A DNA stretch of 64,000 nt, taken from NCBI GenBank assembly GCA_965153455.1, contig OZ234493.1, positions 36,756,213 through 36,820,212 of the forward strand, read 5' to 3'. Below the pieces are notes generated by a model. The model saw nothing but the letters and a program-made list of their open reading frames with translations, had not been told where the DNA came from and searched no databases. Shown here piece by piece: positions 14,151 through 64,000 of the stretch. Position 1 is the first letter of the stretch, and the number at the start of each line of letters is the position of its first letter. Origin of the DNA: Sphagnum compactum (taxonomy: Eukaryota). Both the position numbers and the translations under genes were made by a program.

Positions 14151-16028
14151 TATTTTGCTTGCACTCCTTTTTCTTCTTAGTTTTTTTGATAAAAAGCCAA
14201 AGACTTGCATGAAAAACAGGTTCAATAAAAGGGATGAGGTTTGGGGCTTGGTTGTTACTAAAGAATGTTTCATTACTGAACTTAGTTTGAAAAAAAAAAC
14301 TATGGAATTTAGAGTTTTGGGGAGGTTACAAAGGGGTCATGTTCAATGAAAAGGATTGAAAGCAAGGGACAACAAGAGCAAAGGATCACAAAACCTAAAC
14401 CCTAAACTTGACGTTCAATTGAATGCTTAACATTTGACAAAATGCAAAATTGACTAAATGCAACAACATTTGACTCACCTAAATGCAATGAAAAACAAGG
14501 AATTGTAAAAGTCCTAAAAAATTAACTTTGCATTTGCTGCTTTATAAAACCCTTGATTCTCTTCAACAATTTGCAAGTTGTGACACCGCCCCCCATCCCA
14601 AATCAATAAACTCTAGCATTAGATTTAGAAATAAGCATCCTAAGTTATAACTACACAATTTGGCGATGGTGATCTCAATTGCATAGTTGGAGATGGTGGG
14701 AACATCCATTTTGTATGTGTCAAGTGGTGAGCCCTATGTAATGATTGTTATTTTTTGGGCAAATGATGACAACTACATGTAAGTATTGACAATAATGGAT
14801 GGTGCGATGGAGCCATTTGGTGGCTAGACAATTTTCAAGCCTGCCATGTGCAATGAATAGGCATTAGGGTTTAGGAGAAACTATAGGTGAAACACATTAA
14901 CAGGTATGTAGCCTTTAAGATAATTCCACCCTAATTTTTAGGCATAGAGGTAGAAGAGGTAGATTCCAAGTTGAATTCTTGTGAGATTTTGCTGCTAAAA
15001 AAACACATTGGTGCTGTTCTATTCATAGTCTGCTGGACTTTTGAAGTCTCAGTTTCAGTTTTATGGGCGGGGTTCATGCCTGCTCCAACTCTTCCTTTAT
15101 TTTTAAGTCCATCCCGCCAATTGTGAGCAATAGAATACAGCTTTTTCATTTTACTGTTTGGTTTATGCTCCCTGGACACTACATGCCTCCATCAATGACA
15201 TCATTCTTCAAGATGGTTTTCAATTCTTTTTGGACTGCTCACCCCTCTCAATCAAGTGTTTCTTGACTTTATTCAAACTGAGAAATCAGTCCTTTATGGA
15301 CTTTTAAGTCAAAGCAGGTCCTTGAAGTTGTGATTTTGAACTTGTCTACAGCACAAGAATGCCTTGCCTTGGCCCTATAACAGCAAGAAGCAGAGTTCTT
15401 GAGAAAAAGGTAACAACAGAAAGAAGAAATAAGGTTAGGTATGATACTTAGGATATGTACCACAATTCTGGAACAATTGAACATTCACAGCTAAGGGCTG
15501 TGAAAGCTATGCAAAGGCCTGCTTCAAAAACACAACTTGTATGATGCCTGAAAGAGATCAGGGAAGACTTACAGTCACCAGAGACCAATGTGAGCCAGCT
15601 GGCACCAACAGTGGGCTGTAAGAAACCTTGAAAGCAAAATGAATACCATTCATCCACTTCCGACCAATTGTGTTAATGATATCACAGAGCAGACGCCACC
15701 CTAATCCTTGAGGGATGTACTTGGTTATGTCAACCACATCACTGTACAGGGGGTCCATCCTACATTACTCTTCCAAGGGATTGGATTAGAAGATATTGGC
15801 AATCAGAAATCCTCCACTGTTTCAAACCCACAGAAGCCCATCATAATTTTAACACAACTGTACAATGACAACTTCTAAGCAAACAGAAATCCTTCACCAC
15901 CTCAGGACCAGCTTTGGTTCACACTGCTGCATTCTTTGATGTTCAGTTACGGCAGTGTAGTAATACCATTAAATGTGCTCCAAACCAAATGAACTCAATC
16001 TAGTTCTTGACAAGACAGACTACTGGCA

Positions 16029-18757
16029 TCACCAACAGTCCATGCAAGAACAAACACTGTCCTGAAAGTGATGAAAGCGATTGGCATCCCTCACCATGAT
16101 TGTTCTCCCAACTAATTTTGAGATGAACTTTGTGGAAGTGTGGCAATCTTCACAAACTCGCAGATTCTTCATTATTCGGAGTGGAGTACCAGGATCTGTG
16201 TTGATGAGCCCAAATGTAATGGCCAATTTCTCGCTATGGTGACTCAAATGAAAGACCTTTGATTCTTCCTCCACATCATGCAGCACAAATTCTGTGACTG
16301 GCACATACCCTGCATCATGCATCAGCCATGACAATCTCTTCAGTTGTGCATGGATTTGACTAATCTGAGGGTGTTCCTGATCATCCACTACAAATGTATG
16401 CACCTCATTATTCACTTCAATCCAGGTGCGACCCAGCTGTTTCTTCACACCTCTTTCCTTTCTCTGCCGTTCAACATTCTTACAGAGTTCCCTTTTGCCA
16501 GCAGCTGCATATATGTTTGATAGCAGCACATAACCTGAAGCATTTTCAGGCTCCAGTTCAAGAACTCGTTTAGCAATGCGTTCTCCCATCTCCACATTAG
16601 CATGAATTCTGCAAGCACCAAGTAAAGCCATCCACAAAGCCCCATCTGGTCTAAAGGGCAATGCCTGGATCATGTTCTCTGCCTCCTGTAGACGGCCAGA
16701 ACGGCCGAGAAGGTCCACCATGCAGGCGTAGTGTTCTAATTTTGCAGAAATCTTATAAACTGTGCTCATTGAAGTAAAGCAGCGCAGGCCTTCATCCACC
16801 AAACCTGCATGGCTGCAAGCTGACAGAAGACAAACAAAAGTGATATCATTTGGCTTTACACCTTCTTCACACATCAGTTCAAAATGTCTAAGAGCTTCCT
16901 TGCCATGCCCATGCATGGCACATCCTCCAAGTATGGCATTCCAAGAGACCACATCATGTAATGTCATGTTGTTGAACACTCTCTGGGCATCCTCCATGCT
17001 CCCACATTTTCCATACATGTCAACCAAGCTATTCCCCACAAAGATATTTGAGTGCCATTCGCTTTGAAGGATCTGCTCATGAGCACACCTGCCCTCTTCA
17101 AGTGCAGCTACACTGGCACATGCATTCAGCACCCCCACAAATGTAACAGAGTTTGGTTGCACACCTTCCTTTTGCATCTGTCCAAATAGTTCCAGTGCCT
17201 CTTGCCCTTGCCCACATTTCAAATGTCCAAGCATCATAGTGGTCCAAGTGACTACATCTCGAGAAGGCATCTTGTTGAAAACTCTCCAAGCATCTTCAAT
17301 GCTCCCACATTTTGCATACATGTCAACCAAGCTATGCCCACACAGACATCTGAATCCCATCCACTTTGAATGATCTGCTCATGAGCGCACCTGCCCTCTT
17401 CAAGCGCAACCACACTGGCACATGCGTTCAGCACCCCCACAAAAGTGACAGAATTTGGCTGCACACCTTCATGTTGCATTTGTCGAAATAGTTGCAGTGC
17501 TTTCTGGCCTTGGTGACATTTTACAAATCCAAATATCATCGCAGTCCAAGTGACCACATCTCGAGATGGAATCTTGTTGAACACCCTCTGAGCATCCTCC
17601 ATGCTCCCACATTTCACATACATATCAACCAGGCTACTCCCCACAAAGATATCTGAATCCAACCCCCTTTCAATTATCTGCTCATGGGCAGACCTGCCAT
17701 CTTGAAGTGCAACTTCACTGGCACATGCATTCAGTACCCCCACAAAAGTAACAGAGTCTGGCTCCACACCTTGCTCTCGCATCTGTCGAAATAGATCCAG
17801 TGCCTTCTGGCCTTGCCCACATTTCACATGTCCCAATATCATAGCAGTCCAAGTGACCACGTCTCGTGATGACATCTTGAGGAACACTCTCTGTGCATCC
17901 TCCATGCTTCCACATTTTGCATACATATTAACCAAGCTATTCCCCACACTCACATCTGAATCCCATCCCCTTGCAATGATCCACTCATGAGCACACCTGC
18001 CCTCTTCAAGTGCAGCTTCACTGGCACATGCATTCAGCACCCCCAAAAAGGTAACAGAGTCTGGCTGTGCACCTTCCTTCTGCATTTGTTGAAATAATTC
18101 CAGTGCCTTCCGCCCTTGCCCACATTTCACATGCCCCAATATCATTGTGTTCCACGCGACCACATCTCGAGATGACATATTCTTGAACACTCTCCAAGCA
18201 TCCTTCATTTGCCGACATTTGGCATACATGTCAACCAGACTACACCCCACAAAGACATCAGCCTCACAACCGCTTCGAATTATCTGTTCATGGACCTGCC
18301 TGCCCTCTTGAAGTGCTCCTAACCTAGCACATGCATTGAGAACTGGAACAAAGGTGAAGCTATTAGGACTTATGTTTTTTTGTCGCATTTCTTGGAAAAG
18401 CTGAATTGTCTTCTCATGTTGCCCAGCCTTGACATATCTTGCAAGCCTTCTATTCCAGGAAAAGACGTTCACCTGTACAGTCTCTGGTGCCATTTCAGCA
18501 AGCTTTGCTCCTACCCACGGGGGGTTTCGTCGGTCCCGAAGCCAAAGAGCGTCCTGCCTCTTCTTGTGCTTAAAATCGGGATACCTTTCATCCAGCTTCT
18601 CGGACCTACAGTCCCACCACTGCGCAGGATCTGAAAAGAATTGCCGCCAAAGTTTATCTCTCTGGGCCGCTGGTGTTGGTCCAACCTTTCCACCCGTTGA
18701 CAGCGCTCTGTGGCCATAAGTCACCGTCTGTCCGGAGAGTTGATGGCGCAGTGCCAT
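16029..18757 (-). CDS. PLS-class PPR protein with E1-E2-DYW deaminase domain and an N-terminal OSB-type PDF motif; one 1-bp frameshift near 17335 (pseudogene or assembly error)
   Basis: First ATG at 18757 (MALRHQLSG..RALST, presequence-like). PDF motif at 18512-18652, then five P-L-S triplets plus P2-L2-S2, E1, E2 and a DYW domain with HSEKLA, CEDCH and CSCMDCW. The two ORFs join at GTGGGCATAGC, which is GTGGGGAATAGC in the sister repeats. About 909 aa if repaired; no introns. Confidence 0.93.
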
Positions 18758-19989
18758 CACCAAAGAATTGATGCAGCAACTGAATTGAAGCACTTTAGTT
18801 CGCCGAAGCCACCACAACCGCACTAGTATTGCAACCAAAACAGCTTAGCAGATGAGACAATCGAGAGTTTTTGGTGCAAATAAGACACATAGATTCGTAA
18901 CCGCAGACTTGCAGCAAACTGGAGAGATGGTGAAATACTAAACCCTATTGGTTTGGAGGTTTGGACCAGTATTGGACTGGTATCGGATTTTTAACATACC
19001 CATCGGGTTTGGGCATTTGACTTTTTTTGAAATTCACAGACCATGGTAGAACGGGTATTGAGGCGAAAATACTCAAACTCATATCAGGTGGTATCAATAT
19101 GTCTGTTGTTTACAATTTTCACTAAATGGTATGAGTATCATGGTATTGAAATGTGTGATGCCACAAACAAGTGCAACTTTTTTGCATAAGGTGAAAGAAA
19201 AAATCCTTGATGAACCCTTAAAAAAACAAACCAACAAAACACTAGTCACAACAAAATTGATTTGCAGATGTCCCAAAATCATTACAAATGCATCATTGAT
19301 CAAAGGCTAAGGCTACCAAGTTGGAAAAATTTAATATTATTAATATTATCATAGGCATAAAATTAATAAAATTTGTCTACACATGTAGATCCCAACTTGG
19401 AAAAAAAAATCGTCATTTGATAAGTCATATACAATCATCAACAAAAAATATTATGACAACTTTGATTTGAAGAGGTCATATATTCATCACTAATGCATCA
19501 GTGATAAGAAGTAGACATTGTCAAACATAAAATTAATATGTGCGAGTAGGTCCCAAGTTGAAAAATAATCATCACTTGATGACATATAAAACATGGTACC
19601 AAGTACCAACAACAACACTATAAATTATTTTGATCTACAGAGGTTCCAAAATTATCACAATTGCATGAGACATCACATCAAAGCCTCAATGTGCTATGAA
19701 TTTGGAAAAAATAGTGGTCACTTGATGAATCAAGTAAGTTAACCAATTGGAACGTCGCCAAAAATTTGATGATCAAAGGTCCAAAAACCTACAACAATGT
19801 ATATCATTGACCAAAGGTTCATGGGGCCAAACACAATCACAAAATTAAAAAAAAACATACCCAAGTTCCTTGAGATGGAGAAAAAATTAGCAATTGACCA
19901 AAAAAGGAGGTTGTAGGTAACCAACAAAAGCATTAGAAGAGGTTTCCAACCTGAATGAACATGAAATCATAAAGTTTTTTTACTTGTCC

Positions 19990-42009: not shown

Positions 42010-43385
42010 TATAAAAACGTTGGTGAGAGTCCCTCTCGATCCTCCACAGTGGTGGGACAACAGACCAGCAAGAATGGTGAAAAAGAATGTGAGATTTCCC
42101 CTTATCCAACATAAGAAAACACTACACCCATGTTGGCTGAACTACAAACACAATCCTTGTTGGGTGCAAGTGAAGCTTGTGGCCATGGTTCCAAGGAGTG
42201 GACAAATGAACATCAAATGCCCAACTTGGAATGTGTGTGAAATCTAGACAATGGGAGCAAGCCATTGGGTTTTTCCAGCAAATGAAAAGAGAACACATGA
42301 CTCCAAACACCTTCAATTTTGTTCTAGTGCTCAAAGCATGTACAAAGTTGCGACTACTACAAGAAGGCAAACGCATTCATATAGAGATCTTGTAAATTGG
42401 TTGTGAGTTTGATGTTTTTGTGAGCACCAGCCTCATCAATATGTACATCAAGTGTGGGAGCAAAAAAAATGCTTGCAAATTTTTCAACAGAATGTTCAGC
42501 CATGATTTGGTCTCTTGGACAACCATGATCTTTGGCCATGTCAAACAGGGAGAAGCATAAAAGGCATTGGAGTCGAATTAACATATACAAGGAGTGGTGC
42601 TGAATTTTGTCAATTTTGTGCTAGTCCTAAGTGCATGTGGAAGTTTATCAGTAATCAAAGAAGGTAGGGATGTTCATCAACAGATAATTCTAACTGGTTG
42701 TGAATCGAATGTTCATGAGTCTGGGCATTCTATTGAACACTTGCTAAACATCCTCCAAGCTCCTGCAATTTGCATACCTGTTAAAAAAACTACAACCAAC
42801 AAACACATTAGACTCACAGCTACTCTATTAGATTTGTTCATAAGTTAACCTACATTCCTTGAGTGCCATGACAATAGGACACACATTCAAGACCTCCACA
42901 AAGGTGACATAGTTGGGTTGCGTCCCTTTACATTGCATTAAACTTGCCAGCTACATTTTTGGGTACAATTTTAATGCCTTGTGTCCTCACAATCCACTCA
43001 TAACCAATTTGAATGACCTCTTCATGAATACAACTGCCCTCTTCAAGTGCAACAACACTTGTACAAGCATTCAAAAATCCCACAAAGATGACAGGGCATA
43101 GTTTCAAAGAATGCAAGGGGAAGAAGGGGTGTAGTTAGATACTTCACCTTTTTGGGAATGTTGCATGCATGTATTAGCATTTTTGCACTTGAAGATGGCA
43201 AGCATGTTCACAAAAAGATCATTCCAAACAACTATTGGAATTTTGATGTTTGTGTGAGTAATTCCCTAATTTGTACATACACCAAATGTAGGTGCCCAAA
43301 GGACGTTTTGAGTTCAACATGATGTCCATCAAGGTTGCTTGGAATGCCATGATTCTGGGGTATGTGGAATGTTGACGATGATTTT
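42010..43385 (+). pseudogene. Decayed PDF-motif plus PLS-PPR gene with an internal inversion, cut off by an LTR element
   Basis: DPPQWWDNRP..KKNVRFP..QHKKT..CWL..KHNPCWVQVKLVAMVP, followed by PPR remnants (QWEQAIGFFQQMKREHMTPNTFNFVLVLKAC.., DLVSWTTMIFGHVK). Many frameshifts; no DYW domain in view. Confidence 0.82.
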
Positions 43386-46300
43386 TGATGCACTCCCAAG
43401 TTCCTAGTGGACCCATTTGAGGGTCCAAGTATGTGGCAATGCGGAAGGAGTTGGAACTTGGAGCACGCTCTCGACTTCTAGCACTAGAGGGGGGTGAGAG
43501 GGGTGTGCTAGAAGTCCCGGGATAGACTAGGAAGAATTGATAAGCTTATTCACTCACACGGGCCTGCACACAACCCACACAAAGTGGTTAATGCATAGTT
43601 GGAGCACCTTTGGTGCTAGGACGAGCCTCGGGCAACACGGACACACAAGACTCACCACGGCCCGGACTTGGGGGAAGCCACCACCTTCCCCCTTATAGTA
43701 TACTCTGCAGCTCTCCACGGAGGCTACATCCAAATGGCTATTTTTCCCGGGACTCCCGAGTGGGAGTCCCGAAATCGCGCCAAATGGGACTCCCGCGACT
43801 TTGGAGCCCCATAACTTTGCGAGCAGACCTCGGATTGCGATGCGGTCTAAAGCAAAGTTGTAGATCTCGTCGAGACCTTTTCAACGGTATGTCGCACGTC
43901 CTCTGCAGCCTAGTATTTCGGATCGATTCTTGACTTTTAGTGGTCGGGAGTCAAAACTGGCAGACTCCCGGGAATTCGACTCCCGATCCTTCTTTTGGCC
44001 ATAACTTGTGTTTCAGATGTCCAAATGAACAATGCGAGCCCATTTTAGATATCTATGCTTCAAGAGCTTTCCAATGATATAAAAAACGCCACAAGACATT
44101 GAGGTTTGACACCTGCAATTGCTCTCTGAAGTTTCTGGAGTCCACCGGGACTCCATCTCCCAAAGTGGGAGTCGCCTTGGGAGTGTGAGTGTTCACTCCC
44201 TCACACTTTCTTACACTCCCGGGAGTGTGATGTGACTCCCGGGCTTTCTCTTGCCTTGGCTCCCGGGCTTCCTCTTGGTTTAACTCCCGAGCTTCCTTTT
44301 GGTTTAACTCCCGGGCTTCCTCTTGGCCCGCAACCTTATAACCCCTTTGCCTTTGGTCCTGAGCCCAAAGCTAGGGTTGCGACACTCTCCCCCACTAGAA
44401 GAAGAGGTCAATGTCCTCATTGACACTTAGAATTTCTTTCAACAATTGCAATTGCTTTCTTTTGGATCCTTGGCCATCAAATGCCGGCTCCTTGCGGCCG
44501 GACCTTGCCTCAAGCTAACTTAGGCGTCCCCAAGCTTCCAACACTCTCTTGGCAAGTCCAAATGTGTCTCAATAAAAACCCTCCATTGCTTCGTTAAAAG
44601 ACCTAACTAGCCTAATTGACGAAGCCCTCATTTGGGAGGCCATTCTTTCAACCTTCCCCTCATGAGGAACTCAAGCCAAGCCTAATCTTGACCTAAGCTA
44701 CTTGACATGACTCCTTTCCCAATCTTGCGCTTTGATCACAACAATCAAGCCTTCCTAAAGGTATGCTTATCAAGGTACGAGAAGCGACGTTTAAGCTTTG
44801 CAAAAGCCTAAGTCCTAAGTTACGCGATTATAGTACACGAACGGGGTCATGACTTCCCGCGTTGGCCGCCACTACCAACCAACCCCTTGGGATGCACTTT
44901 GGGCATGTGCACGTCCCTGCAAGCTCACCTTGCTTGCCTCCTCTTTTGGGACCAAGATTTCTCCTAGCCCCCAAGTAGGAGTCCGATTTTGATTTGGGCT
45001 TACGCAAGAAAGTTCCATTTGTCCATGCCACTTGACAACGCCCCCCTTTCTAACATACTATTATGTTTGTGATGCAATCTCTCGAAAGTCTTTAGCCTTT
45101 ATTTCACTTACAATTTGATTTGGTACATTTGTGTAACTTTCCGCCCCCTAAAAGAAAGGTGATGTCCTCATCACGCTCTATGTTTCCTTTGCCTTTTAGC
45201 CGGTCTATTGTGGAATTCTTCTATGGCTTCTTGGGCATGTTCCATGTCAGACTCATTCACCCAAGATGCCTCTATTGGATGGTATCCTTTCCACTTGACC
45301 AAGTACTCCCGCTCTCGCCCCTTTAATTGCCTTGACTTGAGCACGGCCTCCACTTCAAATTTCGATTCATTATGAACCAAATCCGGAGGGGGCCTTGAGT
45401 TGTGCTCTCGATCGGGCCTTGAAGCATCACGGACGACCGGCTTCAAAAGCGAAACATGAAATATGGGATGAACCTTGAGATTTTCCGGTAGTTCTAACTT
45501 GTAAGTGTCGGGAAATTTCTTTTCCAACACTTTGAATAGACCCACATATGGGCCCAAGAACTTGTGGCTCAAACCTTCGAGCAACCGAAAATTCTTGATG
45601 TTCAACCACACTTCATCCCCTTCTTCAAAATTCACCTCTCGTCGGGACTTGTTCGCAAAGTCTTTGTACCTTTTATGTGCCTTCTCAAGATTGGCCTTCG
45701 CCCTTTCCCACAAGCGCCGCCTCTCTTCATCAAGTTGTGTGACCATGGGCACTTCCTCACTCGCATCACTTTGGAGTTGTCCCACCCAAGTTATGGGCAC
45801 AATTGGTGACTTGCCCGTCACCATTTGAAAGGGGGTGGCTCCCGTTGCCGAATGCTCCGAATTGTTGTAACAAAACTCGGCCAACTCCAAATGGTCCACC
45901 CAATCTTGTTGATCCGCCGCCACATAATTCCTTAGGAATTGTTGGATCACCAAGTTCACCCTCTCGGTTTGTCCATCCGTTTGGGGTCGGAAAGAGGTGC
46001 TCATCTTGAGCCCCGTCCCCATGCGCTTCCACAAGGCTCTCAAAAACTTGCTTGTGAACTTTGGGTCTCGGTCCGACACAATGTCCTTTGGAAGCCCATG
46101 ATGCTTGAACACGTGGGTGAAGAACAACCTTCCCGTCTCTTGGGCCGTAGCACTTTCCTTGGTGGGAATGAAATGTGCCATCTTGCTAAATCGATCCACC
46201 ACCACCATTATTGCATCAAATCCCTTTGATGGGGGTAAGCTCACCATGAAATCCATGGAGACACTTTCCCACGGCCCTTCCGGAATGGGTAACGGTCGCA

Positions 46301-49300
46301 ACAACCCGGCTTGCTTTTTATTGACTACCCGGTTTTGTTGGCAAGTCAAGCAAGTCTTCACGTATTCTTCCACATCCTCTTTCAAGTTGGGCCAATAGTA
46401 GGACTTCTTCAAGAATGTGGTAATGTGCTTTGCACCACCGTGGCCCACAAGGGGCCCATCGTGACATTCCTTCAAAAGCACATCCCTTAACCTCCCTTTT
46501 GGAACATAGAGCCTTCTTTGCTTGTACCACAATAATCCATTTTGCAAATGAAAATGGGACTTGGCTCCATTTTGGATGTTTTGCCTTGCTTCCTTGGCAA
46601 AAGCATCCCGGCAGCTTGCTAGTCTAACTTCCTTTTGAAGTTCCGTGTCTCCCACATACACCACTCTAAGTTGGTGCTTCCGGCTCAAGGCATTGGGGAC
46701 TATGTTCTCCTTTCCTGACTTGTGCCGGATGTCCACATTGAACAAGGCCAATGTGTCTTGCCATCTTACTTGTTTTGATGACAACTTTGGTTGAGTTGCG
46801 AAGTACTTCAAGGTGACATTGTCGGTCTACACCACCACATCTTTGGAACCTATGTAGTGGCCCCAAGTCTTGAGACAATATATCACGGCCCACATTTCCT
46901 TCTCATGGGTTGGCCACCTTCGCTCCGTCTCATTCAACTTCTTGCTTTCGAAGGCCACCGGCCTTCCATCTTGCACTAGGACTCCTCCTATGGCAAAGTC
47001 GGAAGCATCGGAATGGATCTTAAAGTCCTTGTCAAAATCGGGCAACTTCAACACGGGCGCCTTCACCAAAATGCCTTTCAAAGTCTCAAAGGCCTCATTG
47101 CATGCCTCCTCCCATTCATAAGTCCCGGATGACTTCTTCAAAAGGTTTGTCAAAGGTGTGCCTATCTTTGCAAAGTTCTTGATGAACTTGCGATAATAAG
47201 AAGCCAATCCCAAAAAGGACCTTAAGGCGGGAACGGACTTAGGTGGTTCCCAATCCAAGATTGCCTTCACTTTGTGGTCATCCATTTTCAAACCTTCTTG
47301 GGTGATCCTATGCCCAAGGAAATCCACCTCCGAGACTCCAAACTCACATTTCTCGAACTTGGCATACAGCTTGTTTTCTTTTAACCTTTGGAACACCTTA
47401 CGAAGGTGCTCCGCATGCTCCTCCAAGGAGCTACTATAGATCAAAATGTCGTCTATGTAGACGACCACAAAATCATCAAGTCATTCTCAGAAAATGTCAT
47501 TCATGAGGGTGCAAAATGTGGCGGGTGCATTGGTGAGCCCAAATGGCATCACCAAGAATTCATATGAACCATACCTTGTGCGGCAAGCGGTTTTCTCTTC
47601 ATCCCCTTGTGCAATTCGAATTTGGTAGTATCCCGAACGTAGGTCAATCCTACTAAACACTTTGGCTCCCGAAAGCCGATCAAACAAGTCATCAATCCGA
47701 GGCAATGGGTACCGATTCTTCACCGTCACCTTGTTGAGGGCTCTATAATCCACACACATCCTCAAAGTCCCATCCTTCTTGTGGACAAAAAGGACGGGTG
47801 CCCCATATGGTGACTTGCTAGGCTTGATGTATCCCTTTGCAAGGAGTTCTTCGAGTTGAACCTTGAGCTCTTTTAACTCCTCATGACTCATTCGATACGA
47901 GGCTTTGGCGGGAGGTGCCACTCCCGGGACCACCTCAATGGCATGGTCCACTTGTCTTCTCGGGGGCAACTCATCGGGCAACTCTTCGGGCATCACATCC
48001 GGGAATTCCTCTAACACTTGCTTGATGCACTTGTGGGGGCTCACCACCTTGGTGGCTTCCTTTGGTTCAAACTCATCCAAAACCCGCATCACACATAACA
48101 TGCCATAGCCTCCCCCACATTCTTTTTCCAAGTTCTTTCCCAACATCAAGTGGATGGTGGTCCCACCCACACTAGGCACTTCATGTGCCTTCACCCGCAC
48201 AATCTCACTTTTGGATGGGATCTTAACTAGCCTATTGTGCCCTTCTATGAGCACATTGTTTTGTGTGATGAATTCCATTCTCAAAATGCAATCCATGCCC
48301 CCTAAGGTGGAAACTAACAAATCCACCTTGCCTCTCCAATTCCCCAATTGGAGCGGCACATCTCTTGCTTGCAACTTGGTGGGATGGGGAATCCCATCCG
48401 CAAAGTGCACCTCTATGGGTGCCTTGAGCTCCTCCAACCGGAGCTCCATTCTTTGGGCACTTTCTTGGGTTATGAAGTTCTGGGAAGCGCCTGTGTCCAA
48501 AAGACATAAAACTTCCCGCTTAGAAACTTTCCCTTTTAAGAAAATAAGGCGGTTACATTCACCTTGGACTAGGCTAGCGGAAAGGGCACTTACCTTAGGA
48601 GCCCCATTCCCCGATTTGGGTTTAGGGCAATCCTTGGAGTAATGCCCCACTTCATTACAATTGAAGCATACTCCCTTGGGTTTCCCACTAGCATCTCCCT
48701 TGGGTTGGCTCACTTTGAAAGGAGCCCCCTTCTTGACAAAATTTCCCTTGGGTTTAAAACCCGAGCCTTGGAATTGTTTAGGTTTTTCCCCTTTTGAGGT
48801 GTCTTGGCCTCGGTTCCATTCCCCTTCATGGCGTGCCTTTTTATGAGAGAACTTGCTATCCTTTTTGAATCCGGATTTTTCACCTCGTCCCACATCCAAA
48901 AAGCCTTCCACTTTCATGATGGCTTCGGTTAGTGAGGTGGGCCAATTCTCCTCAAGCTTGCGTTTGGCCCAAATGGGAAATCCCATCACAAAGTGGCACA
49001 CCCGGTCTAATTCATGCATATGCCGAATCTCAAGCATGAGTTCGGAGTAAGCCCTCACATATTGGCGCAAGTTGTCATTGCTCCCATTCTCAAGGTCACG
49101 GAGTTTGCATCTTGAAATGTAGTCAGAATTCTTGAGAATGAATTCCAACTCAATACGCTCCTTGAAGAATTCCCATGTGTAGCCATGGGTCTTCCCTTCT
49201 TCTTGCCTCACCGTCCTCCACCATGTGGAGGCATAGCCCTTCAAATAGGATTGGGCAAGTTCCACGGCCGAATGCCGACCAACCTTGGCGGCATGAAGGT

Positions 49301-50585
49301 AGTCCTCCATTTCTGCAAGCCAAGCATCCACAACCTTCCGATCCCGAGCCCCATCAAAGTTCCCGGGCCTAACGGACTTGAATCCCACACTTTTGGATGA
49401 ACCTCCCATGAGGGCCGCAACCAATTCACTAAAATCGGGCCTATTCATTTTGAGTAGGACCTCCAATTGTTCCGGGGTGAAGAGGACTCCATTTGGTTGT
49501 TCCTCTTCATTTTCATGCTCCTCAAGGCTAACACGGTCTTCTTCATCTTCGGAATGGTTTTGTTCCTCCTCCCTCATAGCTTCGGGAGGAACATCTAGGT
49601 CTTGGGTGGGTTCTTCCACCACGGGCTCTTGGACTAGCTTGCGGGTCTTCTTTGGTGCCATCGGGACTCTCCAATAAATGGATCGAGCTCTCCCCGAGCT
49701 CTGATACCAAATGACGCACTCCCAAGTTCCTAGTGGACCCACTTGAGGGTCCAAGTATGTGGCAATGCGGAAGGAGTTGGAACTTGGAGCACGCTCCCGA
49801 CTTCTAGCACTAGAGGGGTGAGAGGGGTGTGCTGGAAGTCCCGGGATAGACTAGGACGAGTTGACAAGCTTGACTCACTCACACGGGCCTGCACATAACC
49901 CACACAAAGTGGTTAGTGCAAAGTTGGAGCACCCTTGGTGCTAGGACGAGCCACAGGCAACACGGACACACAAGACTCACCACGGCCCGGACTTGGGGGA
50001 AGCCACCACCTTCCCCCTTATAGTATACTCTGCAGCTCTCCACGGAGGCTACATCCAAATGGCTATTTTTCCTGGGACTCCCGAGTGGGAGTCCCGAAAT
50101 CGCGCCAAATGGGATTCCCGCGACTTTGGAGCCCCATAACTTTGCGAGTAGACCTCGGATCGCAATGCGGTCTGAAGCAAAGTTGTAGATCTCGTCGAGA
50201 CCTTTTCAACGGTATGTCGCACGTCCTCTGCAGCCTAGTATTTTGGGTCGATTCCCGACTTTTAGTGGTCGGGAGTCAAAATTGGCAAACTCCCAGGAAT
50301 TCGACTCCCGACCCTTCTTTTGGCCATAACTTGTGTTTCAGATGTCCAAATGAGCAATGTGAGCCCATTTTAGATATCTACGCTTCAAGAGCTTTTCCAA
50401 TGAGTGTTCACTCCCTCACACTCCCTCACACTTTCTTACACTCCCGGGAGTGTGATGTGACTCCCGGGCTTTCTCTTGCCTTGACTCCCGAGCTTCCTCT
50501 TGGTTTAACTCCCGGGCTTCCTCTTGGCCCGCAACCTTATAAACCCTTTGCCTTTGGTCCCGGGCCCAAAGCTAGGGTTGCGACA
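43386..50585 (-). mobile_element. Near-complete Ty3/gypsy chromovirus (Galadriel-like)
   Basis: TG..CA LTRs at 49712-50585 (5') and 43386-44384 (3'). tRNA-iMet PBS TGGTATCAGAGC at 49698-49709 and PPT at 44385-44393. Domain order gag-PR-RT-RH-INT-chromodomain. Confidence 0.97.
45171..49661 (-). pseudogene. gag-pol polyprotein in a single frame, broken by three nonsense codons
   Basis: ATG at 49661 (MAPKKTRK). [14 protein letters not shown] knuckle, LLDTGAS protease, YIDD RT, DASD RNase H, HHCC and DDE integrase, chromodomain EYLVKWKGY. Stops in NDIF*E*LDD (~47480-47489) and DVVV*TDN (46827). Confidence 0.95.
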
Positions 50586-61424: not shown

Positions 61425-64000
61425 TGTCGCAACCCCACTTTGTCCAAGTGTGGGGGTGAAGCCCAACACTTGGAAAAGTTGGAGGTTTGGAGTCTTCCGG
61501 GACTCCCGAATGTTCAGAGCCCGACAGCAAGGCCCAAAACACCTCACATTGGGGTGTTCTTGGTGTCATTGAAAAGGTCTTGAAACGTAAATATCGAAAA
61601 TGGCCTCGCATTGGCCATTTGGACATCTGAAGCCCAAGTTATAGGCAAAAGAAGGGCCGGGAGTCAAACTGGCAGTTTGACTCCCAACCACTAAATGTCA
61701 GGAATCGACCCTTTGCCGACGTTGCCTCAGGGAGTGCGACATGGCGTTGAAAAGATCTCGACGAGGGCTACAACTTTGGTTCAGACCTTGTCACGATCGG
61801 ATTTCAGAATCGAGAGTTATGACCGTTCAAAGTCCCGGGAGTCCCGCCGGGACAATTTCGGGACTCCATTTCGGGAGTCCCAACAAAATGTGCCATTTGG
61901 ATGTAGCCTCCGTGGTGAGCTGCAGAGATAACTATAAGGGGGAAGGTGGTGGCTTCCCCCAAGTCCGGGCCGTGGTGAGTCAAGTAGTCCGAAGTGCCCG
62001 TGGCTTGTCCCAACACCCAAGGGTGTTCCCGAATGTGAACTAACCCATTTATGGTTGGTTTTGGATGGAGATTCGTGCTTGATCTACTAGTCCATCTTCC
62101 TAGTCTAATCCCAGGGCTCCCAACTCGACCCTCTACCCCTTTCTAGAGTTGGAAGTCGGGAGCGTGCCCCTTGGGTCCCCACTTTCCGCAACTTCACATT
62201 GGTGAACCCTTAAGTGGGTTCACCCCGGGACCAAGGAGCGCGTCACGTGGTATCAGAGCTCAAGGTGAAGCTGAACGACATTTTTGGGATGGCACCCAAG
62301 AAGAACCGGAAGCTAGCCCCAGAGCCTAGGTCCGAGGAGCCCATCGATGACCTAGTAGCCCCGCCGGAATCAATTGGGGAGGAACCAAACTTCCGGGAGG
62401 ACCAAGATGAGCCCGAGGTTGAACCCGAGAGTGAGGAGGAACAACGGAGCTCGGTCCTATTCACCCCGGAGCAACTTGAAATCCTCCTCAAGATGAATAG
62501 GCCCGACTTTGGTGAGTTGGTGGCGGCCCTCAAAACGGGGGCCTCCAAAGGCGAAAGGTTTCAACCGGCCAAGCCCGGGAATTTCGATGGTGCCCGAGAC
62601 CGTAAGGTGGTGGATGCTTGGCTTGCGGAAATAGATGATTATATCCATGCCACCAAGGTTGGACGGAATTTCGCCGTGGAGCTTGCCCAATCCTACTTGA
62701 AAGGCTATGCCGCCACATGGTGGCGGACGGTGAGACAAGAGGAGGGCAAGAACCATGGCTATACGTGGGAGTTTTTCAAGGATCGCATTAAGGCGGAGTT
62801 CATTCCGAGAAACTCCAACTACATCTCAAGGTGCAAACTCCGCGACCTTGTGAATGCCACAAATGAAAATTTGAGGCAATATGTGAGGGCCTATTCCGAA
62901 CTCATGGTGGAGATCCGGCACATGCACGAGTTGGATCGTGTGTGCCAATTCGTGATGGGACTTCCGACTTGGGCCAAGCGAAAGCTTGAGGAGAGTTGGC
63001 CCGCCTCATTATCCGAGGCCATCACGAAAGTGGAGAACTTCTCGGATGTGGGGCGGAGCGACAAATCCGGGTTCAAGAAGGACAACAAGTTCCTTCACAA
63101 AAAGCCAAGGCATGAGGGGGAATGGAACCGGGGGCAAGGTAGCCCAACCAAGGATAAGCCAAAACAATTCCAAGGCTCGGGGTTCAAGCCAAATGGTAGC
63201 TTTGTGAAAAAAGGGGCTCCTTTCAAAGGGAGCCAAACTAAGGGAGACTTTGGAGCAAAGCCCAAGGGTGCATGTTTCAATTGCAACGAGGTGGGGCATT
63301 ACTCCAAAGATTGTCCCAAATCCAAAACGGGGGTTGGGAGCTCTAAGGTACTTGCTCTCAATGCCACTTTAGCCCAACCGGAATGCAATCGACTTATATT
63401 CTTGAAAGGGAAGATTGCTAAACGAGAAATCTTATGTCTTTTGGACACAGGGGCCTCCCACAACTTCATAACTCGGGAGAGCGCCGAAAGGATGGAGCTC
63501 CACTTGGAGGAGCTCAAGGCACCCATTGAGATGCATTTCGCGGATGGGGTTCCCCATCCAACTACACTACAAGCAAAGGGAGTGCCTCTCCTATTGGGAA
63601 ATTGGAGAGGAAAGGTGAACTTGTTGGTTTCCACCTTGGGTGGAATGGATTGCGTTCTCGGAATGGAGTTCATCACCCAAAACAATGTGCTCATAGAAGG
63701 GCACAATAGGTTGGTTAGAATCCCATCTAAAAGTGGGATTGTACGAGTTAAGGCACATGAGTTGCCTTGTGTGGGTGGTTCGACCATCCACTTCATGTTA
63801 GGAAAAGCTTGGGAAAGAGAATGCGTGGGGGGTTTCGGCATGATGTGTGTCATGCGGGTGTTGGACGAATATGAGCCCGAGGGAGCCACCAAGTTGGTGA
63901 CTTCCGCCAAGTGCATAAAGCAAGTCTTACAAGAGTTCCCGGATGTGATGCCCGAAGACTTGCCCGAAGACTTGCCCCCGAGAAGACGAGTTGATCATGC
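61425..64000 (+). mobile_element. 5' part of a second Galadriel-like gypsy element (5' LTR 61425-62245, PBS 62248-62259)
   Basis: TG..CA LTR, TGGTATCAGAGC PBS, and a gag homologous to the element at 43-50 kb. Confidence 0.95.
62289..64000 (+). CDS. gag-protease(-pol) polyprotein, apparently open to the window end
   Basis: [60 protein letters not shown]. The start and end lie in the same frame. Probably absent from the ORF track because it has no stop in the window. Confidence 0.85.
   Translation, partial: MAPKKNRKLAPEPRSEEPIDDLVAPPESIGEEPNFREDQDEPEVEPESEEEQRSSVLFTPEQLEILLKMNRPDFGELVAALKTGASKGERFQPAKPGNFDGARDRKVVDAWLAEIDDYIHATKVGRNFAVELAQSYLKGYAATWWRTVRQEEGKNHGYTWEFFKDRIKAEFIPRNSNYISRCKLRDLVNATNENLRQYVRAYSELMVEIRHMHELDRVCQFVMGLPTWAKRKLEESWPASLSEAITKVENFSDVGRSDKSGFKKDNKFLHKKPRHEGEWNRGQGSPTKDKPKQFQGSGFKPNGSFVKKGAPFKGSQTKGDFGAKPKGACFNCNEVGHYSKDCPKSKTGVGSSKVLALNATLAQPECNRLIFLKGKIAKREILCLLDTGASHNFITRESAERMELHLEELKAPIEMHFADGVPHPTTLQAKGVPLLLGNWRGKVNLLVSTLGGMDCVLGMEFITQNNVLIEGHNRLVRIPSKSGIVRVKAHELPCVGGSTIHFMLGKAWERECVGGFGMMCVMRVLDEYEPEGATKLVTSAKCIKQVLQEFPDVMPEDLPEDLPPRRRVDH

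What the first reader, a model, noticed from the sequence alone, without database searches (positions are those of the whole stretch)
16029..18757. PPR-DYW deaminase fused to an OSB-type PDF ssDNA-binding motif: candidate DNA-tethered organellar editing factor
Seen in sequence: after a ~35-aa presequence-like leader comes LWRQFFSDPAQWWDCRSEKLDERYPDFKHKKRQDALWLRDRRNPPWV (18652-18512), joined by a short linker to 18 PLS-type PPR motifs, E1, E2 and a DYW domain with intact HxE and CxxC. Established: the W..FF..P..WWD.R..K....PDFKHK...ALWL....PPWV pattern is the PDF motif of plant organellar OSB proteins, which bind ssDNA, and PLS-DYW proteins are organellar C-to-U RNA editing enzymes. I do not know this fusion as a described editing-factor architecture. 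Inference: the PDF motif could tether the editor to nucleoid ssDNA or transcription bubbles for co-transcriptional editing, add nucleic-acid affinity, or let the deaminase act on ssDNA.
Basis: partly seen in the sequence, partly recalled or inferred. Interest (0 to 1): 0.9.

Follow-up and report, generated by a model that had tools for sequence, protein, structure and literature searches.

The report
Broken PPR-DYW gene with OSB motif
This is a recently inactivated moss gene for an organelle RNA-editing protein whose front end carries the DNA-binding motif of plant OSB proteins, and the same combination turns up intact in mosses, a liverwort, a clubmoss and a fern but apparently not in the literature.

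Summary
On the minus strand, 18757-16029, lies an intronless gene. It encodes a 35-aa leader, a canonical OSB-type PDF motif (residues 36-82), a 15-aa linker, 18 PLS-class PPR motifs, E motifs and a DYW deaminase with HSE and CxxC. An HMM built only from PDF motifs of SSB-fold (OSB-architecture) proteins scores the window 75.7 bits. The best of 1000 shuffles scores 8.4.

This copy is a pseudogene. It has a 1-nt deletion at 17336, ends in DCW instead of DYW, and has three further window-only changes in the DYW domain. Its four closest metagenome counterparts (three distinct sequences, 95.7-97.4% nt identity) each carry different stops, frameshifts or deletions. dN/dS is about 0.5-0.6.

The architecture is not a one-off. 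PDF-PPR proteins occur in many Sphagnum genes, in Diphasiastrum, Adiantum and Riccia. In a quick tree, 22 of 25 PPR-linked PDF motifs form one clade (SH-aLRT 95). Pfam has no PDF model, and my literature searches found no description of the fusion.

What the PDF motif does in intact relatives is inferred, not shown. I favour an accessory single-strand nucleic-acid grip beside the 5' end of the PPR footprint.

Novelty: new variant of a known kind. Interest: moderate to high for the family, low for this dead copy.

The parts
16029..18757 (-). Whole PDF-PLS-E-DYW pseudogene (ATG 18757, TGA 16029-16031). It would encode about 909 aa if read through.
   Evidence: colinear with the uninterrupted 906-aa relative P0262
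18653..18757 (-). 35-aa leader (residues 1-35), presequence-like: 3 R, 2 K, 2 H, only one acidic residue. Targeting itself was not tested.
18512..18652 (-). PDF motif core, residues 36-82. The HMM envelope is residues 28-92 (18482-18676).
   Evidence: AlphaFold2 model pLDDT 90.2.
18467..18511 (-). 15-aa linker between the PDF motif and the first PPR motif
   Evidence: This stretch has the lowest confidence in the 283-aa model (block mean pLDDT 73).
16644..18466 (-). 18 PPR motifs: (P1-L1-S1)x5 + P2-L2-S2
17335..17337 (-). Frameshift: one A is missing from GGC AAT AGC (now GGC-ATAGC), in the codon for residue 5 of motif S1-4.
   Evidence: L001, L004, P0030 and P0262 have the Asn codon or residue.
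16332..16604 (-). E motif (16416-16604) and E+ (16332-16403)
   Evidence: E 1.7e-15; E+ 21.4 bits, below its cut-off; coordinates
16032..16310 (-). DYW deaminase domain. HSE at 16230-16238, CEDC at 16143-16154, CSC at 16044-16052. Ends in DCW at 16032-16040.
42038..42986. Second, heavily decayed PDF-PPR relic. PDF remnant at 42038-42193 (+), PPR pieces to 42713 (+) in another frame, and an inverted PPR fragment at 42696-42986 (-).

Best explanation
Shown:
- The locus is a young pseudogene of a nuclear, intronless PLS-class PPR-E-DYW gene of a peat-moss-like genome. Its nearest named relatives are Sphagnum proteins.
- Its product would have been: transit-peptide-like leader, one OSB-type PDF motif, short linker, 18 PPR motifs, E1/E2, DYW cytidine deaminase.
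- It belongs to a family in which the PDF motif always sits N-terminal to a PLS array. The family is found in mosses, a liverwort, a lycophyte and a fern.
- Within that family the PDF motif is the most conserved part of the aligned N-terminal region (PDF motif plus the first two PLS triplets).

Inferred:
- Intact family members are organellar C-to-U RNA editing factors of the usual kind. The PPR tract reads the RNA 5' to 3' from N- to C-terminus, and the DYW domain deaminates the C just downstream.
- The PDF motif, lying at the end of the tract that faces the 5' side of the RNA footprint, acts as a sequence-unspecific grip on single-stranded nucleic acid. It raises affinity or capture rate.
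- Whether that strand is the RNA itself (my preference) or nearby ssDNA of the nucleoid is open.
- The window copy lost function recently. The likeliest cause is that its editing site became dispensable, the usual route by which editing factors decay. It is one of many decayed copies of this family.
For: Architecture:
-.

PDF identity:
- phmmer hits named OSB3 proteins and the cluster holding a named osb1.
- Of the best 150 representatives, 22 have an SSB fold N-terminal to PDF copies, 13 have PPR repeats, 1 has a kinesin domain, 2 have marginal hits to unrelated families, and 112 have no Pfam family.
- Motif alignment; reciprocal OSB-only HMM 75.7 bits against 8.4 or less for 1000 shuffles.

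Family:
- All 28 of 28 significant near-length hits are PPR proteins, 20 of them with DYW, mostly Sphagnum. 4 of 10 longer candidates also passed.
- Diphasiastrum, Adiantum and Riccia members.
- 348 related stretches in metagenome contigs.
- 22 of 25 PPR-linked PDFs form one clade, SH-aLRT 95.
- In 35 aligned PDF-PPR proteins, 16 of 65 PDF positions are invariant, against 12 of the next 218 positions.
- Confident fold of the motif alone (pLDDT 90.2) and with two PLS triplets (pLDDT 91.2, pTM 0.76).

Pseudogene:
- 1-nt deletion found only in the window.
- L001 has 2 nonsense codons. L002/L003 have a 1-nt deletion, a 303-nt deletion and a nonsense codon. L004 has 233-nt and 2-nt deletions and P>T in the PDF triplet.
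- Flanks align for 0.8 kb or more on both sides.
- dN/dS is 0.49-0.62 in 5 of 6 pairs and 2.9 in the sixth.
- Four window-only changes in the DYW domain and one just upstream of it.

Literature:
- The PDF motif of AtOSB1 suffices for ssDNA binding, and OSB1/2 prefer ssDNA over dsDNA or RNA (passages of PMC6963530 and PMC4166229).
- Loss of an editing site allows loss of its factor (abstract of PMC6424221 in the listing).
Against: - No binding, localisation or editing data exist for any PDF-PPR protein, so the role of the motif is inference.
- OSB proteins were reported to prefer ssDNA over RNA. That speaks against my preference for RNA.
- The reads laid on the locus did not bridge the frameshift site, so the deletion is not confirmed in independent reads.
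- P0262, a 906-aa relative 96% identical in the aligned N-terminal region, is uninterrupted. P0030 is open from residue 67 to DYW. Some genotypes may therefore keep a working copy.
- dN/dS of 0.5-0.6 is raised but not neutral.
- The tree is a quick search on 65 columns, and the three PDF copies of P0045 fall outside the clade.
- Riccia has a PDF-PLS protein without E or DYW. The motif's role is therefore not tied to deamination.
Confidence: 0.65

Rival explanations
1. The gene is functional and the frameshift is an assembly or consensus error in an AA dinucleotide.
For: - There is a single 1-nt lesion only; no stop codon appears otherwise.
- The close relative P0262 is uninterrupted.
- RNA-library contigs of close relatives cover the 5' part.
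- HSE and CxxC are intact.
Against: - All four counterpart loci from other samples carry their own, different lesions.
- The window alone has changes at conserved DYW positions, including DYW>DCW.
- dN/dS is 0.5-0.6.
- 40 of 51 locus groups of the family show lesions.
- S. fallax gene models of the same 90% cluster start downstream, as N-terminally cut models.
Confidence: 0.12
2. One reading: the PDF motif tethers the editing factor to ssDNA of the nucleoid (transcription bubble, R-loop, replication intermediates), so that editing is coupled to transcription.
For: - In OSB1 the PDF motif is sufficient for ssDNA binding, and OSB1/2 prefer ssDNA to RNA.
- The motif is conserved at OSB-like positions.
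Against: - There is no data on any PDF-PPR protein.
- A PPR tract already binds RNA tightly.
- The motif is one copy only, whereas the strongest OSB hits have 2-4.
- The PPR-linked motifs form their own clade and may have changed preference.
Confidence: 0.2
3. The PDF motif here is a protein-protein contact, for example for oligomerisation or for docking to OSB or other PDF proteins, and not a nucleic-acid binder.
For: - AtOSB2 is reported to assemble as a tetramer (passage of PMC6963530).
- Many proteins consist of nothing but PDF repeats, and one kinesin carries three.
Against: - The only experimental role reported for the motif in the passages I read is ssDNA binding.
- No interaction test was run here.
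Confidence: 0.1
4. The DYW deaminase of such proteins acts on ssDNA held by the PDF motif.
For: Only the co-occurrence of a deaminase and an ssDNA-binding motif.
Against: - The PPR tract lies between the two modules, and in all studied DYW proteins it positions RNA, not DNA (established knowledge, recalled).
- PDF-PLS proteins without DYW exist.
Confidence: 0.02

Closest known systems
[quoted passage not shown]
   Same: They share the same ~50-60-aa PDF motif with its signature (LW..FF..P..WWD.R..K....PDFKHK....ALW....P.WV). Both are plant-specific and carry an organelle-type leader.
   Different: The window protein has no SSB/OB fold. Its motif is N-terminal and single, not C-terminal in 1-4 or more copies. 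It is followed by a PPR-E-DYW array. The PPR-linked motifs form their own clade.
PLS-E-DYW PPR RNA editing factors of early land plants (for example Physcomitrium PPR56, PMC10482289 abstract)
   Same: Both have a PLS triplet array, E motifs, and a DYW deaminase with HxE and CxxC. Both are intronless.
   Different: The window protein has an extra PDF motif ahead of the array. The additional PPR domains listed for Physcomitrium are RRM, LAGLIDADG, SMR, NYN, CBS and SAP (passage of PMC9459714). This copy is also broken and ends in DCW.
PPR proteins fused to other RNA-editing-related domains (MORF, RRM, RanBP2 zinc finger; PMC13386178)
   Same: The principle is the same: a PPR tract joined to a second nucleic-acid-related or partner domain (passages).
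   Different: The PDF motif is not among the fusions listed there. 'Single-stranded', 'Sphagnum' and 'Diphasiastrum' each occur 0 times in that text. Its supplementary tables were not readable.
PDF-only repeat proteins and a PDF-kinesin of flowering plants (Kingdonia P0031 with 13 copies; Coptis P0084)
   Same: They carry the same motif outside the OSB context.
   Different: They have no PPR or DYW, they have many tandem copies, and they are angiosperm proteins.

Membership tests
OSB family | One or more PDF motifs | tested here: met
   (75.7 bits with an HMM built from OSB-architecture proteins only)
OSB family | Central SSB-like OB fold N-terminal to the PDF motif | tested here: not met
   no PF00436 in either half of the protein, even at E<=1. 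The motif starts 35 aa from the N-terminus.
OSB family | Binds ssDNA; targeted to mitochondria and/or plastids | not testable with these tools
   Only the leader composition is available.
PLS-class DYW-type PPR editing factor | Array of P-L-S motif triplets ending in P2-L2-S2 | tested here: met
   (18 motifs in units of 35+35+31 aa)
PLS-class DYW-type PPR editing factor | E1/E2 (E, E+) extension | tested here: met
   E motif 57.4 bits (cut-off 27.3). E+ 21.4 bits, just under its cut-off of 24.
PLS-class DYW-type PPR editing factor | DYW deaminase domain with HxE and CxxC zinc/catalytic signature | tested here: met
   (134.4 bits); HSE and CEDC are located.
PLS-class DYW-type PPR editing factor | Conserved C-terminal end (…HHF.DG.CSC.DYW) | tested here: not met
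   The window has QDSVCSCMDCW. L001, L003, L004 and P0030 have QDGVCSCMDYW.
PLS-class DYW-type PPR editing factor | Uninterrupted reading frame | tested here: not met
   1-nt deletion at 17336
PLS-class DYW-type PPR editing factor | Edits a defined organellar cytidine | not testable with these tools
   No organelle genome or editing data of the source species were at hand. The PPR code read-out was not matched to any target.
PDF-PLS PPR subfamily (proposed here) | PDF motif directly N-terminal to a PLS array, and membership of the PPR-linked PDF clade | tested here: met
   The window groups with the moss members inside the 22-row clade, SH-aLRT 95 (quick tree).

The most novel reading that the evidence does not exclude
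PDF-PLS PPR proteins are an old, overlooked class of land-plant organellar factors, arising from one fusion before liverworts, mosses, lycophytes and ferns split. In this class an OSB-type single-strand DNA-binding module physically couples site-specific RNA editing, or other PPR work where DYW is absent as in Riccia, to single-stranded DNA of the nucleoid. That would make editing co-transcriptional in lineages that lack MORF helpers.
Probability: 0.2. Interest if true: 0.8.

Novelty: new variant of a known kind. Interest (0 to 1): 0.58.

Why it matters
PPR editing factors are usually described as a PPR tract plus E/DYW. Accessory domains are catalogued through Pfam, and Pfam has no PDF model. 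That may explain why this fusion is missing from the surveys I could read.

A conserved module ahead of the PPR tract, shared with the proteins that guard organellar ssDNA, gives a concrete and testable handle on two questions:
- How do editing factors of MORF-less early land plants gain affinity?
- Is editing tied to the nucleoid?

It also matters for engineering PPR editors, where an extra grip on single strands could be useful. For this particular locus the message is sober. It is a dead copy, and most sampled relatives in moss metagenome contigs are dead too. That in turn shows how fast this family turns over.

Tried and rejected
- Reads. No run held more than 0.61 of the sampled words. 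Contigs are shattered by the PPR repeats and break at 17326-17345, so the frameshift site was not bridged and the deletion could be neither confirmed nor refuted. The poly(A) raw-read run gave 160 laid reads, of which 139 fit only in part, so most are probably from paralogues. I therefore give it only as weak support that the minus strand is transcribed.\n- Structure search. Foldseek of the PDF model against PDB gave 5 matches, all at E>=8. A profile of alignment A1 found 0 PDB sequences at E<=1. No solved relative of the fold was found.\n- ESM Atlas with the first 110 aa. The best score was 0.78, to phage clusters, which is below the level where the tool calls a hit a lead. Rejected as chance.\n- Whole-genome census. 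No genome is held for this window. Earlier findings were not open.\n- Search for liverwort and model-species relatives with the Riccia motif. It gave 3 of 6 candidates: two Riccia species and one unnamed. No Marchantia or Physcomitrium protein appeared, but the word index limits that search, so this is not evidence of absence.\n- Retroposition marks. No poly(A) tract was seen directly after the stop codon in 15300-16040. Not pursued further.\n- PPR-code read-out (the code itself is recalled). It was not matched to a target because no organelle sequence was available.\n- I considered a complex prediction of the PDF motif with itself or with the DYW domain. I did not run it, because I make no claim of such binding.
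Full report
WHAT IS THERE

The minus strand between 18757 and 16029 carries one intronless gene that table-11 ORF listing splits in two, 17252..18838 and 16029..17360. Translation from the ATG at 18757 gives:
- a 35-aa leader;
- the stretch LWRQFFSDPAQWWDCRSEKLDERYPDFKHKKRQDALWLRDRRNPPWV (residues 36-82, 18652-18512);
- a 15-aa linker;
- PPR repeats.

The second ORF continues the repeats and ends in E, E+ and a DYW deaminase domain. Pfam scores: PPR_2 7.2e-78 and 7.3e-42, E motif 1.7e-15, DYW_deaminase 1.2e-39. E+ is just below its cut-off. Nothing was found for the first 94 aa, even at E<=1. Regular parsing in units of 35+35+31 aa gives (P1-L1-S1)x5 + P2-L2-S2, which is 18 motifs. HSE and CEDC are present.

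IS THE N-TERMINAL STRETCH A PDF MOTIF?

Yes.
- phmmer of the 65-aa envelope against 1.84 billion cluster representatives found 665 proteins at E<=1e-3, 195 at E<=1e-10 and 19 at E<=1e-30. Many contain 2 to 13 tandem copies.
- I scanned the best 150 against Pfam at E<=1e-5:
  - 22 have an SSB fold (PF00436) upstream of the motif copies, which is the OSB architecture;
  - 13 have PPR repeats (2 with DYW, 6 with an E motif);
  - 1 is a kinesin;
  - 2 have marginal hits to unrelated families;
  - 112 have no Pfam family.
- Cluster look-ups name several of the SSB-fold hits: 'protein OSB3, chloroplastic/mitochondrial' in Chenopodium, Canna and Anthurium, and 'protein osb1 mitochondrial' in Phtheirospermum.
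- The motif alignment shows the window sequence carrying the whole signature.
- As a reciprocal test I built an HMM from 48 PDF instances of 23 SSB-fold proteins only. It scores the window 75.7 bits (E 1e-22) over residues 31-89. The best of 1000 shuffles of the first 100 aa scores 8.4 bits.
- According to the passages I read, the PDF motif is a 50-aa element of OSB proteins. In AtOSB1 it suffices for ssDNA binding, and OSB1/2 prefer ssDNA over dsDNA or RNA (PMC6963530 and PMC4166229).

THIS COPY IS DEAD

The two ORFs are offset by one base. The window reads GGC-ATAGC where close relatives read GGC AAT AGC, so one A is missing at 17336. The lost codon specifies residue 5 of motif S1-4.

Four metagenome contigs hold the counterpart locus, representing three distinct sequences because L002 and L003 gave identical results.
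- L001 and L004 are 97.3-97.4% identical over the gene. L002/L003 are 95.7% identical over its first 1.8 kb.
- The flanks align for 0.8 kb or more on both sides.
- None shares the window's deletion, but each has its own lesions:
  - L001: two nonsense codons.
  - L002/L003: a 1-nt deletion, a 303-nt deletion and a nonsense codon.
  - L004: a 233-nt deletion, a 2-nt deletion and P>T in the PDF triplet itself.

The window alone has HLC>HLS, AIA>AIT, DG>DS and DYW>DCW in the DYW domain, and G>W just upstream of it. Nei-Gojobori dN/dS is 0.49-0.62 in five of six pairs. In the sixth, L001 against L004, it is 2.9, from 2 synonymous and 21 non-synonymous differences.

Against a completely dead locus stand two metagenome proteins.
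- P0262 (906 aa) is uninterrupted, though it lacks the HHF of the C-terminal end.
- P0030 is open from residue 67 to DYW.

Two S. fallax gene models in the same 90% cluster (625 and 630 aa) begin downstream of where the counterpart loci are broken.

The reads I laid did not bridge the site. An assembly error cannot be excluded formally, and I give it 0.12.

TRANSCRIPTION

A contig from a moss metatranscriptome library covers 18473-18925 without a break (13 differences, so a close relative). A second covers 18246-18502.
- That library has no depth beyond about 18975, where the two DNA runs do have depth.
- Stranded poly(A) raw reads lie with the first mate on the + strand, as expected for RNA from the minus strand.
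- Most of those reads fit only in part.

There is thus no sign of a transcript start or splice that would remove the motif. This evidence is modest and comes from relatives.

THE FUSION IS A FAMILY

With the motif as query:
- All 28 significant proteins of 275-877 aa, out of 42 candidates, are PPR proteins. 20 of the 28 have DYW. They come from Sphagnum magellanicum, S. fallax, S. jensenii, S. troendelagicum, S. balticum and unnamed metagenome records.
- 4 of 10 longer candidates (899-975 aa) are the same kind.
- PPR-bearing representatives also come from Diphasiastrum complanatum (several genes, one a 957-aa PDF-PLS-E-DYW protein), Adiantum capillus-veneris (two PDF copies) and Riccia sorocarpa.
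- The Riccia protein has a 93% identical counterpart in R. fluitans, and neither has E or DYW. From memory, marchantiid liverworts lack organellar RNA editing, so the motif's job is probably not bound to deamination.

Relationships and conservation:
- In a quick ML tree of 97 PDF instances (65 columns, LG+G4), 22 of 25 PPR-linked motifs form one clade with SH-aLRT 95. The clade spans liverwort, moss, lycophyte and fern. The three copies of one unnamed 1371-aa protein fall elsewhere.
- In an alignment of 35 PDF-PPR proteins, 16 of the 65 motif positions are invariant, against 12 of the following 218 positions.
- The motif always lies N-terminal to the PPR array. In OSB-type proteins it lies C-terminal to the OB fold.

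STRUCTURE

AlphaFold2 gives a confident small alpha/beta unit: helix 3-15, short strands at 20-22 and 35-37, helix 54-62, mean pLDDT 90.2. With two PLS triplets attached the model keeps pLDDT 91.2 and pTM 0.76, and the linker is its weakest stretch. No solved structure resembles the unit by fold (5 matches, all E>=8) or by sequence (0 hits).

A GRAVEYARD

- A degenerate-pattern scan of metagenome contigs found 348 related stretches, and the best 80 were kept.
- Of these 80: in 42 the DYW region lies outside the ORF that starts in the motif; 26 contigs end too early; 4 show no DYW within reach; 8 are in one ORF.
- Frame tracking shows that the breaks are in-frame stops and frame changes inside continuous homology, without intron-like gaps in most loci.
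- Grouped at 98.5% identity there are 51 groups: 31 with lesions, 9 more with lesions before the contig ends, 5 cut early without lesions, 5 in one ORF, and 1 unclear.
- The grouping over-merges at least once: intact L049 falls in a group with broken L072/L073.
- The window itself holds a second, much more decayed PDF-PPR relic at 42038-42986. It lies next to Ty3/gypsy-type retrotransposon ORFs.
[quoted passage not shown] Fast birth and death would fit that.

HOW IT MOST LIKELY WORKS

Shown: the domain order and the conservation of the motif.

Established knowledge (recalled): PPR tracts bind RNA with their N-terminus toward the 5' end, and the DYW domain edits a C a few nucleotides 3' of the footprint.

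Inference: a motif placed 15 aa ahead of the first PPR motif faces the nucleic acid 5' of the footprint. I therefore read it as an unspecific single-strand grip that adds affinity or speeds capture.
- I prefer the RNA itself as the bound strand (about 0.45).
The reported ssDNA preference of OSB1/2 supports it.
- A protein contact gets about 0.1.
- DNA deamination gets about 0.02.

The decay of this copy is most simply explained by loss of its editing site (abstract of PMC6424221), but I could not test that.

COMPARISON AND NOVELTY

The protein is not an OSB, because the OB fold is absent (tested). It is a PLS-E-DYW PPR gene by all sequence criteria except an intact frame and the C-terminal end.

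The literature searches found no description of a PDF-PPR fusion:
- 'PDF motif' + pentatricopeptide: 1 paper, a replication review.
- 'Organellar single-stranded DNA' + DYW: 0 papers.
- 'PDF motif' + OSB: 3 papers, none on PPR.
- Zaegel + pentatricopeptide + DYW + moss: 0 papers.
- The 2026 OSB family survey (182 genes, 59 species) has 0 occurrences of 'pentatricopeptide'.
- PPR fusion surveys list MORF, RRM and RanBP2, and RRM, LAGLIDADG, SMR, NYN, CBS and SAP.

Limits of this search: the library holds open-access papers only, supplements were closed, and the original OSB paper (Zaegel et al. 2006) was not read.

I rate this a new variant of a known kind. The family is of real interest to people who study organellar RNA editing and genome maintenance. 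This locus is a dead member of it.

Noticed in passing
window 42038-42986: A second, heavily decayed PDF-PPR relic. It has a PDF remnant (HMM E 1.3e-10) in one frame, PPR pieces in another, and an inverted PPR fragment on the other strand. It lies about 23 kb from the main gene.
   Followed up: partly
window 45171-49754 (-) and 62214-63998 (+): Ty3/gypsy-type retrotransposon ORFs. The first has gag, protease, RT, RNase H, integrase and chromodomain split over three ORFs. The second element, gag-protease, runs off the window end.
   Followed up: partly
loci L001-L080 (metagenome contigs): Most sampled PDF-PPR loci are broken by stops or frameshifts (40 of 51 groups at 98.5% identity). Only about 5 or 6 run in one ORF to the DYW region. 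Whether PDF-less PPR-DYW genes of the same genomes decay as often was not tested.
   Followed up: partly
P0177 / P0266 (Riccia sorocarpa, R. fluitans): A 458-aa PDF-PLS PPR protein without E or DYW is conserved at 93% between two marchantiid liverworts. That lineage is said (recalled) to lack organellar RNA editing.
   Followed up: partly
P0031 (Kingdonia uniflora), P0084 (Coptis chinensis): The PDF motif also occurs outside OSB and PPR proteins. One 1160-aa protein has 13 tandem copies and no other Pfam domain. A kinesin has three copies ahead of the motor domain. 112 of the best 150 hits have no Pfam family at all.
   Followed up: no
P0262; P0253 and P0265 (S. fallax BDL97_11G118100, BDL97_08G001600): The uninterrupted 906-aa relative lacks the HHF of the DYW C-terminal end. 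The two annotated S. fallax models of the same cluster start inside the PPR array, apparently downstream of lesions like those in L004.
   Followed up: partly
window 16815: Nearly all laid contigs and reads of four runs read A where the window has G (for example 70 of 72 first-mate-on-plus-strand reads of the raw-read run). Most of this depth probably comes from paralogues sharing this repeat segment, so the window base is the odd one in the family.
   Followed up: no
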